Source of the DNA: an uncultured Deferribacteres bacterium
GTDB lineage: Bacteria > Zhuqueibacterota > Zhuqueibacteria > Zhuqueibacterales > Geothermadaptataceae
Assembly (NCBI GenBank): GCA_964014485.1
Contig: CAXHAT010000114.1
Coordinates: 1 to 25,750, forward strand
Reading direction: 5' to 3'
DNA: 25,750 nucleotides
Shown: piece after piece, positions 1 through 25,750 of the stretch
Numbering within the stretch: the first letter of the stretch is position 1
Layout: every line of letters starts with the position of its first letter
Program-made: the position numbers

Positions 1-3000
1 ATTTATGGATGTCGTGGGGAATCAAGCCGTCGGTGGTGATGGGGCATAGCGTCGGCGAGTATGTCGCGGCGTGTCTGGCGGGCGTTTTTAGTCTGGAAGA
101 AGGTTTGAAGCTTATCGCCGAGCGTGGGCGGCTGATGGATTCCGCGACCGCAAGCGGCGCGATGACGGCCATTTTTGCCAGTGAAGAAAAGACGCGCGCG
201 CTAATTGCCGGATTTGAAGAAAACGTCTCAATCGCCGCGATCAACGGTCCGGCGAACACGGTGATTTCCGGCGAAAAACAAGCCGTCGCGGAAATTCAGC
301 AAAAGTGCGTTTCAGAAGAAATTAAATTTCGCGAATTGGTCGTTTCCAGCGCCTTTCATTCGCCGTTGATGAATTCAATCTTGGACGAATTCACGACTTT
401 CGCTAAACAATTTGAATTCAAAACACCGAAGCTCAGACTGCTCTCAAATTTAACCGGCGATTTCGTCACGCCCGACCAAAATCTCGACGCGGATTACTGG
501 ACGCGCCACCTGCGCCAGCCTGTGCAGTTTCTCGCCGCGATGCAAAAATTGCAGGAATCCGGCGTTGAGGCATTTCTGGAAATCGGGCCGACGCCGACGC
601 TGCTTGGCATGGGCGCGCGCTGTTTTGAAGAAGGATTTGGCCGTTGGCTGCCCTCGCTGCGCAAGGGTCGCGACGACTGGCAGCAAATGCTTGAATCTCT
701 TGGCGCTCTGTTCGTGCAAGGCATCGACATTGACTGGAGAGCTTTTGACGAACCCTACAACCGCCGAAAAATTTCAATCCCGACCTACCCGTTTCAGCGT
801 ACACGTTTTTGGCCGGACATCGTGCAATCGCCGCATCATCTGAACGGCGCGTCTGAGCCGAAAATTCATCCTTTGCTGCATAAAAGCACGCAGTCGCCGC
901 TGGTCGAAAAGATCGTTTTTGAAGCCAATTTGCGACCGGATGACGCGAAGTTTTTCAAAGATCACATCGTCCATGACATGATCGTCGTCCCGGCGACGGC
1001 GCATCTCGAAATGGCGCTCTCGGCGGCAAAACTTATTTTGAAGAATGAAGCGGAAATCAATGACGTAATCATCAAAGAACCGCTGATTTTGGATGATGAA
1101 AAACCGACGCAAGTTCAGTTCGTTTTTTTACCTGAAGAAGACGGCGTGCGGGCATTCGAATTGATTTCAATCGATGAGAGCGAAGCGCAAGGCTATCGTC
1201 TGCATTCAAAAGGAAAGGTCTCGCAACGAGACTCCGCCCAAAGTACGCAAGATTTCCAACGCGAAAAAATCCTGAAACGCTGCACAAAACAGATCGGGCA
1301 CGACGATTACTACGCGCAAATGAAAATGCGCGGCGTAGCATTCGGCGAGACGTTCTGCGCGATGACGGAACTGCATTGCGGCGAAAATGAAGCACTCGGC
1401 AAGATTGAAATTCCCGACGCGCTGACAACGGAATTCGATAACTACAATTTCCACCCGGCCTTGCTCGACGCTTGCCTGCATCCGCTCGTTGGCGCGTGGC
1501 CGGAAAATGATGATTTGCGCGAAGACGACACCTACTTGCCGCTCAGCGTCGAATCCACGAATTTTTACCAAAAACCAAATGGCGCGCTTTGGAGCCATAT
1601 GAAGCTGCAACCTTCCGGCAGCGCCAATGCCGAGACTTTTTCGGGCGACTATAAAATTTATTCGGAAGGCGGCGAATTGGTCGCTGAAATTCGCGGTTTT
1701 CTGGTGAAAAGAACCACGGCGGCGGCGTTAAATCGTGGCAAGCAGGACGATCTTTCTGATTGGTTTTACGAAATCGTCTGGGAAAAACAGACGCTTGCTT
1801 TGCAGAACGAATTCGCTGCGCAATTGGCTGCACCGAACGTGCTGACGAGCGCTTCGCAGGCGGTTTTGCCGCAATTGATTGCGAAGGACGCCTTGCGGGA
1901 ATACAGCGAGGTTCTGCCAAAACTCGAAAACATCTGCTGTGAATTCGTCGCGGCGGCGTTGCAAAAGCTTGGGTTCGATTTTCAATCCGGAAAAGCGTTT
2001 TCCCCAAAAGCGCTGGCGGACGAATTGGGCGTTATCCAAAACCATCGCCGATTATTCGGGCGATTGCTCGACATGCTTTGCGAAACCAGTTGGCTGGAAA
2101 CGAGCGGAAACGGTTTTCGCGTTATCGAATCGCCGCGCTTTCAAAATCCGGCGGAGTCGTCGACAAAGCTTGCACACAATTTCGATGCGTGCAAAGCGGA
2201 GATCGAACTAACGGCAAAATGCGGCGCGCGACTCGCCGAAGTTTTGACCGGAAGCCAAGACCCGCTGCAACTGCTTTTCCCGGACGGCTCGGTCGAAATT
2301 CTCGAAAAAATCTACCGCCAATCGCCGCTGATGGAAGCATTGAATGGGCTTGTTGAAAGTGCGATTCAAAAGCTCGTCGCAGAACTGCCATCAGACGGAA
2401 AATTGCGCATTCTCGAAATTGGCGCGGGAACCGGCGGGACAACGACTTTTGTGCTGCCGTACCTGCCGCCGGAGCGGACGGAGTACACTTTCACTGACGT
2501 TGGCGCTTATTTCTTGCAAAAAGCAGCGGAGAAGTTCGCCGAATTCCCCTTCGTCGAATACAAAACGCTGGACGCCGAATTGCCGCCCTCCGAGCAAGGT
2601 TTTAACGGACGAGAATTCGACGTGATCATCGCCGCCAATGTGCTGCACGCGACGGCGGATTTGGGGCAATGCCTTGAGCGCGTCAAGCAAATGCTCGCCC
2701 CGAACGGCGCATTGATTTTGCTGGAAGGAATCGCGCCGCAGCGTTGGGTCGATCTCACGTTTGGTTTAACCGAGGGCTGGTGGAAATTTACCGACACGGA
2801 TTTGCGCCCGAATTATCCGCTGATTTCCGGCGAAGCGTGGAAAACGTTTCTTGAAGCGCAAGGATTTAGCGAGCCGTGCGTTCTGCCTGACGCATCTGAT
2901 GAAGCGCAAACCGCCGGTTCCGCGCTTTCGCAACACGCCATGATTATCGCGCGCAGCTCTCAACAAAAATCTTCTGAAAAGGAATCGAACACGTGGCTGA

Positions 3001-24000: not shown

Positions 24001-25750
24001 AACCCGCGCTTTTCGCTGTCGAGTATGCATTGGCGCAGTTGTGGACGTCGTGGGGCGTGCGACCGACGGTGGTGATGGGGCACAGCGTCGGCGAGTATGT
24101 CGCGGCGTGTGTGGCCGGGGCTTTTAGTCTCGAAGACGGCTTGAAATTGATCGCCAAACGGGGGCGATTGATGCAATCGCTGCCGGAAAATGCCGGCGGC
24201 ATGGTCGCGGTTTTCGCCGAAGAAAAAACGGTGTGCGAGTTTCTGAACGGGTTTGAAAAAAGCGTCGATATCGCGGCGTTGAACGGGCCGGAAAACACGG
24301 TGATTTCAGGCGAAAACGGCGCTCTTGATGAAATCCTGCAAAAGCTTGATGCAGCGGGCCTGAAGTACAAAGCATTGACCGTTTCGCACGCTTTTCATTC
24401 ACCGCAAATGGAGCCGGTTCTCGAAGAATTTGGAAAAGCGGCGGCGAGCGTTGAATTTCACGAGCCAGAGATCGATTTGATTTCGAACGTCACCGGCCAG
24501 CCCGCGACATTTGAAGAGATCAGCGATCCGAAATACTGGCAAAAACACATTCGTCAGCCGGTGCGCTTTGCCGACTCGATTCGCACGATTCAAAAGCAAA
24601 AAGTGAACATTTTTCTGGAAATCGGCCCACACCCGACGCTTTTGGGCATGGCGCAGCGTTGCATTGAAGAAGAAAAAATGGTCTGGCTGCCGTCCTTGCG
24701 CAAAGGCCGCGACGATTGGCGGCAATTGCTCGAAAGCGCGGCGAAGCTCTACATTGCCGGCCTTGATCTTGACTGGGCGAGCTTTGAAAAACCACACAAT
24801 CGCCGCCGCGTGCCGCTGCCGACGTATCCGTTCGAGCGCCAGCGCTACTGGATCGATCCGCCAAAAGCGAGCGCGGTTTCTTTCGCGGCAGAAGATGCGG
24901 AAGACGCGCGTTTTTCACTGCTTGGCAAACGGCTCAACTTGCCGATCACGACCTTTCAAACCGAATTGAGCAGGGCAAAACTGGCGCTGATGGACGAGCA
25001 TCGAACTCACGACGTTTCGGTTGTTCCCGGCGCGGTTTTTCTGGAATTGGCGTTGTCGGCGGCGATGGAGTCGCAAAGCTCCCCCCTTCGAAGGGGGGCT
25101 GGGGGGGATGTAAAAGAACGCTCTCACTTGGCGACAACATCCGGAAACATCCCCCTAACCCCCTTCAAAGGGGGAACAATCTGGTCGCTTCGCGATATGA
25201 TGATCGATCAGGCCATCGTGCTGCCGGACGAGGGCCTGAAGACGATTCAAGTCATCGTCGATGAAGACCGCTTCAAAGTTTTTGGTCTGGAAGAATCTGA
25301 ATCAGAGAAGCCGGTTTGGCGCAAGCACGCTTCAGGACAATTTTTGTTTGAGCAAATTGATGTTTCTTCCGAGTTTTCCATCCAGGAAACGAAAAAACGC
25401 TGCGAAATCACGGATGTCGCCACAATCCAAAATCGCGTCAGAGCACGCGGCATTCGCGTTTCTGAAGATTCATTGAAGCCGGAAACGATTTGGAGGCGTG
25501 ACGGGGAAGCGTTGTGCCTTTTGAATTTGCCGAAGCATTTTTCAGAAAAATCAGACGATTTTGCGATGCACCCCGCCGTTATTGACGCGGGTTTGCAATT
25601 GCTCGAAGCGGCGCTGCCGGAGGACGGTTCCGTGCTCGCGGCTGACGAAGCTTACATGATGATCGGTTTGGAAAAAGCCGCACTTTTCGCGCAGCCCGCG
25701 GGACAAATTTTCATTCACGGCGAACTCTATTTGCCGGAGAAATGCAACGC

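What a model noticed while it worked through the whole genome (the two positions that open the first line are those of the whole stretch)
3..25748. Twelve-module methyl-branching polyketide assembly line with kinase, glycosyl, sulfo and flippase genes, conserved in KS [...]
Seven contigs (C101, C114, C326, C298, C269, C412, C159) are pieces of one 12-module cis-AT PKS, all readable AT domains malonyl-type, five consecutive modules with C-methyltransferases in a symmetric pattern (DH-MT-KR / full+MT / MT only / full+MT / DH-MT-KR), ending in a thioesterase. The same line, with a fixed tailoring set (two GT28, GT1/GT4, four to five APH-family kinases, two MsbA-like ABC transporters, DUF5666, secreted esterase, sulfotransferases), is conserved in a quarter of the order; the likely product is a long multi-methyl-branched glycosylated, sulfated or phosphorylated envelope lipid. 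This genome adds a halopyrrole cassette (C115) and a dolichol-kinase-like gene inside the [...]
Evidence so far: Domain strings and HAFH/VASH AT motifs. 7 of 28 other order genomes have 6-13 KS-AT hits at E<=1e-120, none in this genome's own family; no other of 166 phylum genomes has more than two at 1e-190. Module order by best KS match is 3935-3934-3931-3928-MT only-4209-4211-6579-6408 in G016 and G011 and nearly so in G017, where the line is on one contig; this fixes the contig order and agrees with end overlaps C326-C298 and C269-C412. In G016 and G017 the homologues of g06693, g01804, g06692, g06691, g04213-14, g06265-66, g06231, g06014-17, g06020 lie directly upstream and g06940, g03659, g06411-12, g04900 downstream; in G000 they lie on C350, C115, C242, C276, C271, C299, C154. 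C115:10284-21094 h [...]
(Added by a program. Inside this text positions count along the whole contig: contig position 1 is position 1 of the stretch shown here. "Call 12" and the like, gene names such as g00115 and contig names such as C1 are that model's own, and its searches are not shown. The text may have been shortened before it was handed on; [...] marks where a part breaks off. The agent that wrote the report below was given it as the finding of a first reader that could run no searches.)

Follow-up and report, generated by a model that had tools for sequence, protein, structure and literature searches.

The report
Cross-phylum polyketide line predicting spiroketal core
This is a real 12-module polyketide assembly line from an uncultured bacterium, and its five-module core recurs in uncultured bacteria of several phyla in a pattern that points to a methylated double-ring (spiroketal) molecule for which no product was found in the papers searched.

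Summary
The 12-module cis-AT PKS is real and present in 7 of 28 other order genomes. Three first-reader claims fail. The ATs are not all malonyl: M2 is VASH, M3 FAYH/FASH, M12 dead. The GT28-kinase-ABC set adjoins the line only in genus g7. The line is not KSB1-specific: its core recurs in 24 read clusters from Chloroflexota, Acidobacteriota, Gemmatimonadota, Rokubacteria and others, 23 with NRPS domains.

Around the MT-only (ketone) module, the ±1 modules mostly reduce fully and the ±2 modules never carry ER. At +2 the DH is absent (8 of 23) or has the LPFxW proline replaced by Leu/Met (14 of 23); all 63 ER-module DHs keep Pro. KS and MT trees group KSB1 M7 with DH-less modules. Best reading: M3 and M7 leave hydroxyls, giving a 1,9-dihydroxy-5-ketone that closes to a methylated 6,6-spiroketal (about 55%; inferred, no chemistry).

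The PKS genes also carry 28 in-frame REP-type insertion sites, 47-fold above other genes; this scan noted such insertions before on other DNA. A stop codon cuts off the M6 ACP.

The parts
3..6089 (+). Module 4 (position -1), 5'-truncated: AT(SAFH)-DH-C-MT-ER-KR-ACP; its KS is on C101
   Evidence: MT matches CurJ C-MT at E 1e-94; DH keeps His/Asp/Pro; KR has His in place of the catalytic Tyr
6373..11169 (+). Module 5 (position 0): KS-AT(RAFH)-C-MT-ACP, no reductive domain; leaves the central ketone
   Evidence: its MT falls in the cross-phylum position-0 clade, support 100
9565..10632 (+). C-methyltransferase of module 5 (query of the cross-phylum search)
   Evidence: CurJ 5THY E 5e-58, His (VIHAT) and Glu (ILYE) aligned; alignment A1
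11210..12752 (+). Three small genes between M5 and M6: 224-aa and 84-aa unknowns and an HNH endonuclease (12312-12752); low GC
   Evidence: G017 has unclassified genes of the opposite strand at this spot
12931..21180 (+). Module 6 (position +1): KS-AT(HAFH)-DH-C-MT-ER-KR, ends at an in-frame TAA (21178-21180) before its ACP
   Evidence: orthologues carry the ACP fused
21181..21597 (+). ACP of module 6, same frame behind the stop; possible restart at ATG 21232
   Evidence: PF00550 E 4e-9, GLDSL; run X1 contigs list no other letter here
21915..25748 (+). Module 7 (position +2), 3'-truncated: KS-AT(HAFH)-DH; MT-KR-ACP follow on C326
25659..25661 (+). Met in place of the conserved LPFxW proline in the M7 DH (YMMIGL); marker of the +-2 DHs
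3431..3500 (+). In-frame CGTC/dRS3-type REP dimer (reads SFPQRRES..DSRLRGND)
4769..4838 (+). In-frame REP dimer in the ER-KR linker of M4
7788..7929 (+). In-frame palindrome cluster after the M5 KS
8392..8576 (+). Three palindrome families stacked in the AT loop of M5 (78 aa versus 7 aa in orthologues)
14491..14918 (+). Two in-frame palindrome sites in M6 (KS-AT linker 14491-14507; AT loop 14894-14918)
16306..16629 (+). Nested palindrome cluster (about 100 extra aa) between the two hot-dog halves of the M6 DH
   Evidence: AlphaFold2: DH mostly pLDDT >90, insert residues 165-244 <50
18624..18693 (+). In-frame REP dimer in the structural KR subdomain of M6
20241..20310 (+). In-frame REP dimer in the ER-KR linker of M6
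23442..23885 (+). In-frame palindrome sites in M7 (KS-AT linker 23442-23458; AT loop 23808-23885)
25082..25174 (+). In-frame palindrome dimer inside the M7 DH
21734..21775 (.). Intergenic palindrome pair between the M6 ACP and M7

Best explanation
The line is a lengthened KSB1 member of a cross-phylum family of cis-AT PKS(-NRPS) clusters built round a five-module core. Shown from sequence: the domain order. Inferred: a conserved starter KS takes an unknown acyl primer (no loading module; TEII upstream). M1 and M2 reduce fully (M2 adds a methyl from methylmalonyl). M3 leaves a hydroxyl. M4 gives CH2-CH(Me). M5 leaves a ketone with one or two alpha-methyls. M6 gives CH2-CH(Me). M7 leaves a hydroxyl, because its Pro-to-Met DH does not dehydrate. 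The 1,9-dihydroxy-5-ketone closes, spontaneously or with an unidentified cyclase, to a methylated 6,6-spiroketal. In G000, M8-M11 add a saturated tail with one more hydroxyl (M9), and the non-extending M12 passes the chain to a Cys-nucleophile TE. The product would be a C22-plus-starter spiroketal acid that the kinase inside the operon (G000) or sulfotransferases and glycosyltransferases (g7) may decorate. In genus g6 and other phyla the same core goes on to NRPS modules and yields a spiroketal lipopeptide.
For: Family membership: 55 of 63 loci found with the M5 MT have it in a PKS module without reductive domains (6 KSB1, 49 other, several only fragments). The starter KS clade (22 rows, support 99) includes KSB1 M1. 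Pattern in 24 non-KSB1 clusters read whole: -2 has no ER in 24 of 24 (no DH 17, A-KR loader 3, DH present 4); -1 reduces fully in 23 of 24; +1 in 20 of 23; +2 has no ER in 23 of 23 (no DH 8, DH with Leu/Met 14, DH with Pro 1). Among DHs, one alignment column alone separates the groups: Pro in 63 of 63 ER-module DHs, Leu/Met in 17 of 17 DH-MT-KR DHs, which are scattered over the DH tree. Outside the family, DHs keep Pro: CurF, CurJ, GphF, and the CrpA-like and Nostoc C052 DH-MT-KR modules. KSB1 M7's MT and the KS behind it group with those of DH-less MT-KR modules of G038, G041 and G050 (support 91 each). G017 has replaced M3 with a DH-less KS-AT-KR module. The MTs are CurJ-type C-MTs.
Against: No product or chemistry is known. 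The Leu/Met DHs keep His and Asp, and that they are inactive is inferred, not shown. Five of 24 clusters depart from the strict pattern or are cut (G053, G045, G039, G031, G058), and one -2 DH keeps Pro (G038). The KRs of M4, M6 and M7 have His for the catalytic Tyr; this is true of 26 of 26 DH-MT-ER modules and of Nostoc modules, so probably tolerated, but untested. No AveC-like spirocyclase was found in G000, in a search that rang nowhere. The hydroxyls could be used for lactones, esters or glycosides instead. The clusters were picked through the position-0 MT, and kin are not independent. The M6 ACP is cut off by a stop in this assembly. Tree supports are SH-like FastTree values.
Confidence: 0.55

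Rival explanations
1. One reading: M3 and M7 dehydrate normally, giving a linear multi-methyl dienone chain that a dedicated GT28/GT4/APH/MsbA/sulfotransferase set turns into an envelope glycolipid.
For: The set lies directly upstream in G016 and G017, and sulfotransferases lie inside the g7 operon; g7 genomes have a second GT28 copy, so the adjacent copy may be dedicated. The M3 and M7 DHs keep His and Asp. Wzx-flippase and Asn-synthase-like genes border 7 of 24 distant clusters, so glycan links recur.
Against: GT28 orthologue in 22 of 29 order genomes versus PKS in 8; unlinked in g6; no GT28, APH or sulfotransferase hit beside any of 24 distant clusters; no link shown in G000. DH-less modules replace the Leu/Met-DH modules at the same position. 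No FAAL, PapA or MmpL genes in the g7 clusters.
Confidence: 0.2
2. The hydroxyls at -2 and +2 are retained but used otherwise (macrolactone with the C-terminal residue, ester, sulfate, glycoside), so the product is a hemiketal or open ketone secondary metabolite, not a spiroketal.
For: Many clusters end in NRPS-TE or carry a conserved hydrolase pair; three start with an A-KR hydroxy-acid loader, as depsipeptide lines do (logic recalled); patchy spread in KSB1 (8 of 167) suits a secondary metabolite.
Against: It does not explain why both hydroxyls stay exactly 1,5 to the ketone with full reduction between them in 19 of 23 readable clusters.
Confidence: 0.15
3. The Pro-to-Leu/Met DH is a specialised enzyme, either a dehydratase-cyclase like AmbDH3 that closes ring B by oxa-Michael addition of the hemiketal, or an olefin isomerase.
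For: His and Asp are kept and the change arose several times; KSB1 M7 DHs also lost the GYxYGPxF motif; AmbDH3 is a cis-AT precedent (PMC4979870, passages).
Against: Eight +2 modules have no DH at all; many Leu/Met-DH modules pair a methylmalonyl-type AT with an MT, which gives a gem-dimethyl carbon that cannot be dehydrated; M3 has no oxygen nucleophile upstream at the right distance.
Confidence: 0.12
4. The G000 copy is decaying and makes nothing or a truncated product.
For: Stop before the M6 ACP, not contradicted by run X1; M12 KS His-to-Ser; very high insertion load.
Against: All 28 insertion sites keep the frame, and the family-A 3' half reads DSRLRGND in 16 of 16 PKS cases, avoiding the stop frame. 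KS, AT, DH and ER motifs are intact in M1-M11 where readable. The assembly has low depth and adapter remnants on 139 contigs, so the stop may be an error. M12 is degenerate in g7 as well.
Confidence: 0.12

Closest known systems
Cyanobacterial/myxobacterial cis-AT PKS with embedded C-methyltransferases (curacin CurJ, gephyronic acid GphF, cryptophycin CrpA; epothilone EpoM8-type KS-AT-MT-ACP, recalled)
   Same: Module type, CurJ-like MT with His/Glu, DH fold, MT-only module leaving an alpha-methylated ketone.
   Different: Five MT modules in a row with mirror symmetry; DHs at +-2 with the LPFxW Pro replaced, whereas CurJ, CurF, GphF and the CrpA-like DH keep it; no loading module.
Spiroketal polyketides of cis-AT lines (avermectin, reveromycin, spirangien; recalled)
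   Same: An unreduced ketone with hydroxyls 1,5 on both sides as the ring precursor (inferred here from the domain order).
   Different: Methyls come mainly from SAM-dependent MTs; no AveC-like gene found (uninformative); hosts are uncultured Gram-negative and Chloroflexota lineages; termination by NRPS or a Cys-TE.
Aplysiatoxin carbon skeleton (cyanobacterial spiroketal; structure recalled)
   Same: Family positions -3 to +1 (methyl and full reduction, methyl and OH, unmethylated, gem-dimethyl ketone, methyl and full reduction) read like its C13-C4 stretch.
   Different: Position -1 is fully reduced in 23 of 24 clusters; no aromatic starter or halogenase in the distant clusters; peptide or lipid tail. 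One search listed no paper describing its gene cluster, so kinship could not be tested.
Mycobacterial envelope-lipid PKS (PpsA-E, Mas, Pks12/mycoketide; recalled) and sponge-symbiont Sup PKS
   Same: Long reduced methyl-branched chain; neighbouring sulfotransferase, glycosyltransferase or polyprenol-kinase-like genes in G000 and g7.
   Different: No FAAL, PapA or MmpL in the g7 clusters; 12 distinct modules rather than iterative use; NRPS ends in relatives.
CGTC-tagged REPs: Neisseria dRS3, Rickettsia RPE-4/RPE-6 (PMC3733652, passages and section 15)
   Same: GTCATTCCCGC-type hairpins as head-to-head dimers coding 20-30 aa inside genes.
   Different: Concentration in one megasynthase (3.5 sites per 10 kb, above the 1.6 of non-coding DNA), several families stacked at shared sites, and other repeat types at the same sites in g6 and g7.

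Membership tests
cis-AT modular type I PKS | KS with Cys-His-His, AT with GHSxG in cis and ACP in each module | tested here: met
   KS motifs intact in M1-M11; GHSxGE read in 10 ATs (M9's lies in a contig gap); M12 non-extending; M6 ACP behind a stop
cis-AT modular type I PKS | Release domain at the end | tested here: met
   PF00975 E 9e-27; GRCFG nucleophile as in AB3403 4ZXH
CurJ-type C-methyltransferase | Homology to CurJ MT with His and Glu of the dyad | tested here: met
   M4 E 1e-94 and M5 E 5e-58 with His and Glu aligned; HAT motif in M3 and M6; dyad numbering recalled, dyad described in PMC7327777
PKS O-methyltransferase (StiD/StiE/CurL type) | Closest solved relatives are O-MTs | tested here: not met
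   Top PDB hits are C-MTs (CurJ, DisA, PsoF, citrinin PKS)
   M2 VASH, M3 FAYH/FASH; VASH as methylmalonyl motif per PMC7327777
Spiroketal-forming cis-AT PKS | Ketone module with hydroxyl-leaving modules two positions up and down and reduced carbons between | tested here: inconclusive
   Domain pattern met in 19 of 23 readable distant clusters; depends on the Leu/Met DHs being non-dehydrating
Spiroketal-forming cis-AT PKS | Dedicated spirocyclase (AveC-like) | tested here: inconclusive
   PF17198 not found in G000, control also silent; not among flanking genes scanned
Spiroketal-forming cis-AT PKS | Spiroketal in the isolated product | not testable with these tools
   no chemistry
Canonical PKS dehydratase (for M3, M7) | HxxxGxxxxP His, Asp, GYxYGPxF and LPFxW motifs (PMC6697708) | tested here: not met
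   His and Asp present; Pro replaced by Met in M3 and M7; GYxYGPxF lost in M7
Mycobacterial-type envelope lipid PKS | FAAL loading, PapA acyltransferase, MmpL exporter in the cluster | tested here: not met
   None among flanking genes of G016 and G017; features recalled
PKS with fixed GT28-GT4-APH-MsbA tailoring set | Set adjacent wherever the PKS occurs | tested here: not met
   Adjacent in G016 and G017; not in G011; 0 of 24 distant clusters; set commoner than PKS
Prolyl-PCP halopyrrole cassette (C115) | Prolyl-PCP dehydrogenase, adenylation enzyme, carrier, flavin halogenase | tested here: met
   PigA/RedW-like (below curated cut-offs), AMP-binding, ACP, two Trp_halogenase hits; link to the PKS not shown
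CGTC-tagged REP / RPE-4, RPE-6 | (C/T)GTC tag, hairpin, head-to-head dimers, many genomic copies, mostly intergenic, some in frame | tested here: met
   Family A: 172 intergenic, 38 other-CDS, 18 PKS sites; sequences
CGTC-tagged REP / RPE-4, RPE-6 | Mobilising transposase identified | not tested
   7 Y1_Tnp hits in G000, not checked for flanking elements

The most novel reading that the evidence does not exclude
A single, so far undescribed family of spiroketal-building PKS(-NRPS) lines is spread over at least seven mostly uncultured bacterial groups. KSB1 converted it from a lipopeptide line into a line for a membrane-type lipid with a rigid polymethyl spiroketal in mid-chain and a phosphate, sulfate or sugar head. 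The Pro-to-Leu/Met change, gained several times, would be a sequence marker for DH domains that keep the hydroxyl or close the ring.
Probability: 0.3. Interest if true: 0.88.

Novelty: new variant of a known kind. Interest (0 to 1): 0.7.

Why it matters
Large modular PKS lines are usually confined to a lineage. This core is kept across Chloroflexota, Acidobacteriota, Gemmatimonadota, Rokubacteria, delta- and beta-proteobacteria, Acidimicrobiia and KSB1, which suggests a common metabolite class that my searches did not find described. The module logic gives a concrete structure to look for (a methylated 6,6-spiroketal on a peptide or lipid). The single-residue DH marker is cheap to test and would correct structure predictions that count every His/Asp-bearing DH as active. 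The repeat insertions mark about ten loop and linker sites where a modular PKS tolerates 10-100 extra residues, useful for engineering.

Tried and rejected
O-methyltransferase reading of the MT-only module: rejected, best solved relatives are C-MTs. Gene conversion as the source of identical repeats in different AT loops: not supported, G000 AT DNA is only 65-74% identical between modules. Mono- versus dimethylating MT signature: no useful column. Contig-end links from the PKS contigs to tailoring contigs: only adapter matches were printed, and the list was cut at 60 rows. Reads: only contigs of three marine DNA runs from one study, best holder possibly the source sample; no other letter at the M6 stop, no listed piece bridging it; no RNA holder listed. 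RPE models in NCBIfam did not hit five translated inserts. The 224-aa ORF has no reliable Atlas match (0.85). AveC-like search uninformative. Plasmid search for a cultured carrier of the family: ten cyanobacterial records; three opened, none with the core pattern. Literature: no paper on this line in searches; none on the aplysiatoxin cluster in one search; none on His-type KRs in one search; subscription papers and supplements were not seen. Earlier findings for this genome: none returned; 'spiroketal' met in no finding.

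
Full report
**Observation.** The window is contig C114 of G000. 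It encodes the rest of one PKS module (3-6089), a KS-AT-MT-ACP module (6373-11169), a KS-AT-DH-MT-ER-KR protein (12931-21180) whose ACP follows behind an in-frame TAA (21178-21180), and the start of a fourth module (21915-end). Across the genome, twelve closely related KS domains lie on C101, C114, C326, C298, C269 and C159, with a KR-ACP piece on C412. The order M1-M12 is: full, full, DH-MT-KR, full+MT, MT only, full+MT, DH-MT-KR, full, KR, full, full, KS-AT-KR-ACP-TE. The order rests on orthologues. KS clades follow position for M3-M9 (quick tree), and the split modules fit relatives with gaps of about 28, 136 and 105 residues. The contig-end overlaps are short and inexact. Seven of 28 other order genomes carry the line, and 8 of 167 phylum genomes by the MT alignment. 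P0001, identical to the G011 module, is labelled candidate division KSB1 by its source.

M2's AT is the methylmalonyl type (DVVQP, GHSMGE, VASH); M3's is FAYH here and FASH in relatives; M12's has lost its serine, and in G000 the M12 KS has lost a histidine (motif meaning from PMC7327777, passages). M12 is therefore non-extending, leaving 11 extensions. The GT28-GT4-kinase-ABC-esterase set is directly upstream only in G016 and G017. G011 has TEII and PPTase upstream and ends in NRPS modules, two hydrolases and an ABC exporter. The GT28 orthologue lies on other contigs in G011, G012 and G014 and is found in 22 of 29 order genomes (this tally includes the unpublished G020 and G024). In G000, TEII and a PaaH-like gene precede M1, a secreted esterase lies between M10 and M11, and a phytol/dolichol-kinase-like gene lies between M11 and M12. 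The tailoring and halopyrrole genes exist on other contigs, but no link was found.

**The line belongs to a cross-phylum family.** A scan of GTDB genomes with an alignment of the M5 MT returned 63 loci. Eight are another design, mostly cyanobacterial FAAL-KS-AT-MT-TE. The other 55 (6 KSB1, 49 others, several only fragments) carry the MT in a PKS module without reductive domains. Their record titles name Anaerolineae, Caldilineaceae, Chloroploca, Acidobacteriota, Gemmatimonadota, Rokubacteria, delta- and beta-proteobacteria and Acidimicrobiia; these are depositors' labels and some look wrong. I read 24 of the 49 as whole clusters, chosen for contig length. A TEII gene precedes the first KS in 18 of 24. 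NRPS domains are present in 23 of 24, the other being cut by its contig end. None has a GT28, APH or sulfotransferase hit in the region fetched, but seven border Wzx-flippase and Asn-synthase-like genes. The first KS forms one clade of 22 rows (support 99) that includes KSB1 M1.

**What the symmetry means.** Number modules from the MT-only module (0), which leaves a ketone. In the 24 clusters, position -1 reduces fully in 23 and position +1 in 20 of 23 readable. Position -2 never has an ER: 17 have no DH, 3 are A-KR loaders, 4 have a DH. Position +2 never has an ER: 8 have no DH, 14 have a DH with Leu or Met in place of the proline of the LPFxW motif (motif named in PMC6697708, passages), and 1 keeps Pro. 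In an alignment of DHs from KSB1 and ten distant clusters, this is the only column that separates the groups: Pro in 63 of 63 ER-module DHs, Leu/Met in 17 of 17 DH-MT-KR DHs, including M3 and M7 of G000. Those 17 are scattered over the tree (nine other partial or DH-KR rows were not in either group). CurF, CurJ and GphF keep Pro, as do DH-MT-KR modules of two Nostoc plasmid clusters, one with the cryptophycin gene set (identification from gene content and recall). The MT of KSB1 M7 and the KS behind it group with those of the DH-less +2 modules of G038, G041 and G050 (support 91 each). G017 has a DH-less module in place of M3. Many Leu/Met-DH modules pair a methylmalonyl-type AT with an MT, which gives a gem-dimethyl carbon with no alpha-hydrogen to lose.

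The simplest reading is that -2 and +2 leave hydroxyls. The chain is then CH(OH)-C-CH2-C-C(=O)-C-CH2-C-CH(OH), a 1,9-dihydroxy-5-ketone, the standard precursor of a 6,6-spiroketal (established chemistry, recalled). The strict pattern holds in 19 of 23 readable clusters; in the two of these with an A-KR loader the first ring may be five-membered.

**Mechanism for G000.** Shown: domains and motifs. Inferred: an unknown acyl starter; CH2CH2 (M1); CH2CH(Me) (M2); CH(OH)C(Me)1-2 (M3); CH2CH(Me) (M4); C(=O)C(Me)1-2 (M5); CH2CH(Me) (M6); CH(OH)C(Me)1-2 (M7); CH2CH2 (M8); CH(OH)CH2 (M9); two CH2CH2 (M10, M11); release by a TE with a cysteine nucleophile. The MTs tested are CurJ-type C-MTs. Ring closure may be spontaneous; no AveC-like gene was found, in an uninformative search. 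Phosphorylation by the in-operon kinase, or sulfation and glycosylation in g7, is plausible but untested.

**Evidence against.** The Leu/Met DHs keep His and Asp. The KRs of M4, M6 and M7 have His for the catalytic Tyr. This holds for 26 of 26 full+MT modules and occurs in Nostoc; intact DH and ER domains beside them suggest activity, but I found no paper on it. Five clusters depart from the pattern or are cut. The clusters were selected through position 0, and related genomes are not independent. The M6 stop is not contradicted by contigs of run X1, which may be the source sample; if real, the G000 line may be broken or use a split ACP.

**In-frame palindromes.** The PKS proteins are interrupted by translated hairpin repeats of at least six families. 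Merged into sites, there are 28 in 79.8 kb of PKS coding DNA (12 in the window), 52 in 6.93 Mb of other genes and 218 outside genes: 3.5, 0.075 and 1.6 per 10 kb. The motifs were taken from the PKS, which inflates the ratio, but the genome-wide family A alone gives 18 versus 38 sites. Other genes of 1000 aa or more hold 9 sites in 905 kb, three of them in the C3 PKS-NRPS. Family A matches CGTC-tagged REPs (dRS3, RPE-4/6; PMC3733652, passages and section 15). Its 3' half reads DSRLRGND in 16 of 16 PKS cases, never the stop frame, so the genes were under selection while the inserts piled up. Genera g6 and g7 carry different repeats at the same loops. The AT stretch from FxGQG to QP is 57-62 residues in all ATs of ten distant clusters but up to 155 in KSB1. 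An AlphaFold2 model of the M6 DH is confident except over the insert. This is a known kind of event, and the scan noted it before in other megasynthases (e1-4867923, e1-4914638).

**Known systems and novelty.** It is a cis-AT modular PKS built from known parts. It works like the spiroketal-forming lines, but membership depends on untested DH behaviour. Family positions -3 to +1 resemble the recalled C13-C4 skeleton of aplysiatoxin; one search listed no paper on that gene cluster, so this is a lead only. It fails the tests for mycobacterial envelope-lipid PKS. Searches gave no description of this line or family. PMC7472256 and PMC13635244 (passages) mention KSB1 PKS or NRPS only in passing. The library lacks most subscription journals, and I read no supplements, where such clusters could be listed.

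**Verdict.** A real feature and a new variant of a known kind; interest 0.70. Family membership about 0.95, hydroxyls kept at M3 and M7 about 0.7, spiroketal product about 0.55, envelope role open.

Noticed in passing
window 21178-21180: In-frame TAA separates module 6 from its ACP; orthologues are fused. Assembly error or real nonsense change is unresolved.
   Followed up: partly
window 5337-5354 and 20827-20844; C326 KR: KR catalytic Tyr replaced by His (NHAAAN) in all 26 DH-MT-ER modules examined across phyla and in Nostoc MT modules; looks like an MT-associated KR subtype.
   Followed up: partly
window 11210-12752: Low-GC insert of two unknown ORFs and an HNH endonuclease between M5 and M6; G016 and G017 have other small genes at the same junction.
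   Followed up: partly
L017-L019 (G011 C87), L002-L003 (G017 C121): Module loss by recombination: g6 fuses KS1 to the body of M2; G017 joins KS2 to a DH-less AT-KR-ACP in place of M2/M3.
   Followed up: partly
L009, L004, L017, L031: g7 and g6 PKS genes carry heptamer-like tandem repeats (reading QQPATSN, SSILYP, QGAGGRG) and PLKGG palindromes in frame at the same loops as G000's REPs.
   Followed up: partly
L145:9160-10077 and equivalents: An EamA-like membrane gene follows the +2 module in seven distant clusters (after +3 in G041), and a pair of alpha/beta-hydrolases follows the NRPS in many; candidates for export, release or ring closure.
   Followed up: no
L143, L115, L161, L167, L183: In Chloroflexota the cluster borders a Wzx flippase and an Asn-synthase-like amidotransferase; in G036 it sits among exopolysaccharide genes. 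The acyl-peptide may be attached to a surface glycan.
   Followed up: no
L039:1284-13160 (G000 C115): Prolyl-PCP pyrrole cassette with two flavin halogenases, a methyltransferase, two Asn-synthase-like genes and TauE, behind one copy of the APH/ABC set; may decorate a glycan rather than prime the PKS.
   Followed up: partly
L051 (G000 C3:18586-28005): Separate 3140-aa KS-AT-ACP-aminotransferase-C-A-PCP-TE hybrid with a Cys-type TE, also carrying three REP sites.
   Followed up: no
L029-L030 (G014 C7): Another hybrid cluster with an AMP-binding loader, KS-AT(methylmalonyl)-DH-ER-KR-ACP and NRPS modules; its KS sits next to the starter-KS group.
   Followed up: no
L057, L058, L060, L066, L072, L074: Recurrent cyanobacterial two-gene FAAL-ACP / KS-AT-MT-(ACP)-TE system with the same MT clade; could make methyl-branched ketones.
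   Followed up: no
G000 contig ends: 139 of 465 contigs contain library adapter sequence, so contig ends and apparent overlaps are unreliable.
   Followed up: yes
L043:433-4302, L045:13968-15215: Secreted purple-acid-phosphatase-like proteins near tailoring-type genes; with the APH kinases they recall kinase/phosphatase pro-drug pairs (calyculin, recalled), link untested.
   Followed up: no
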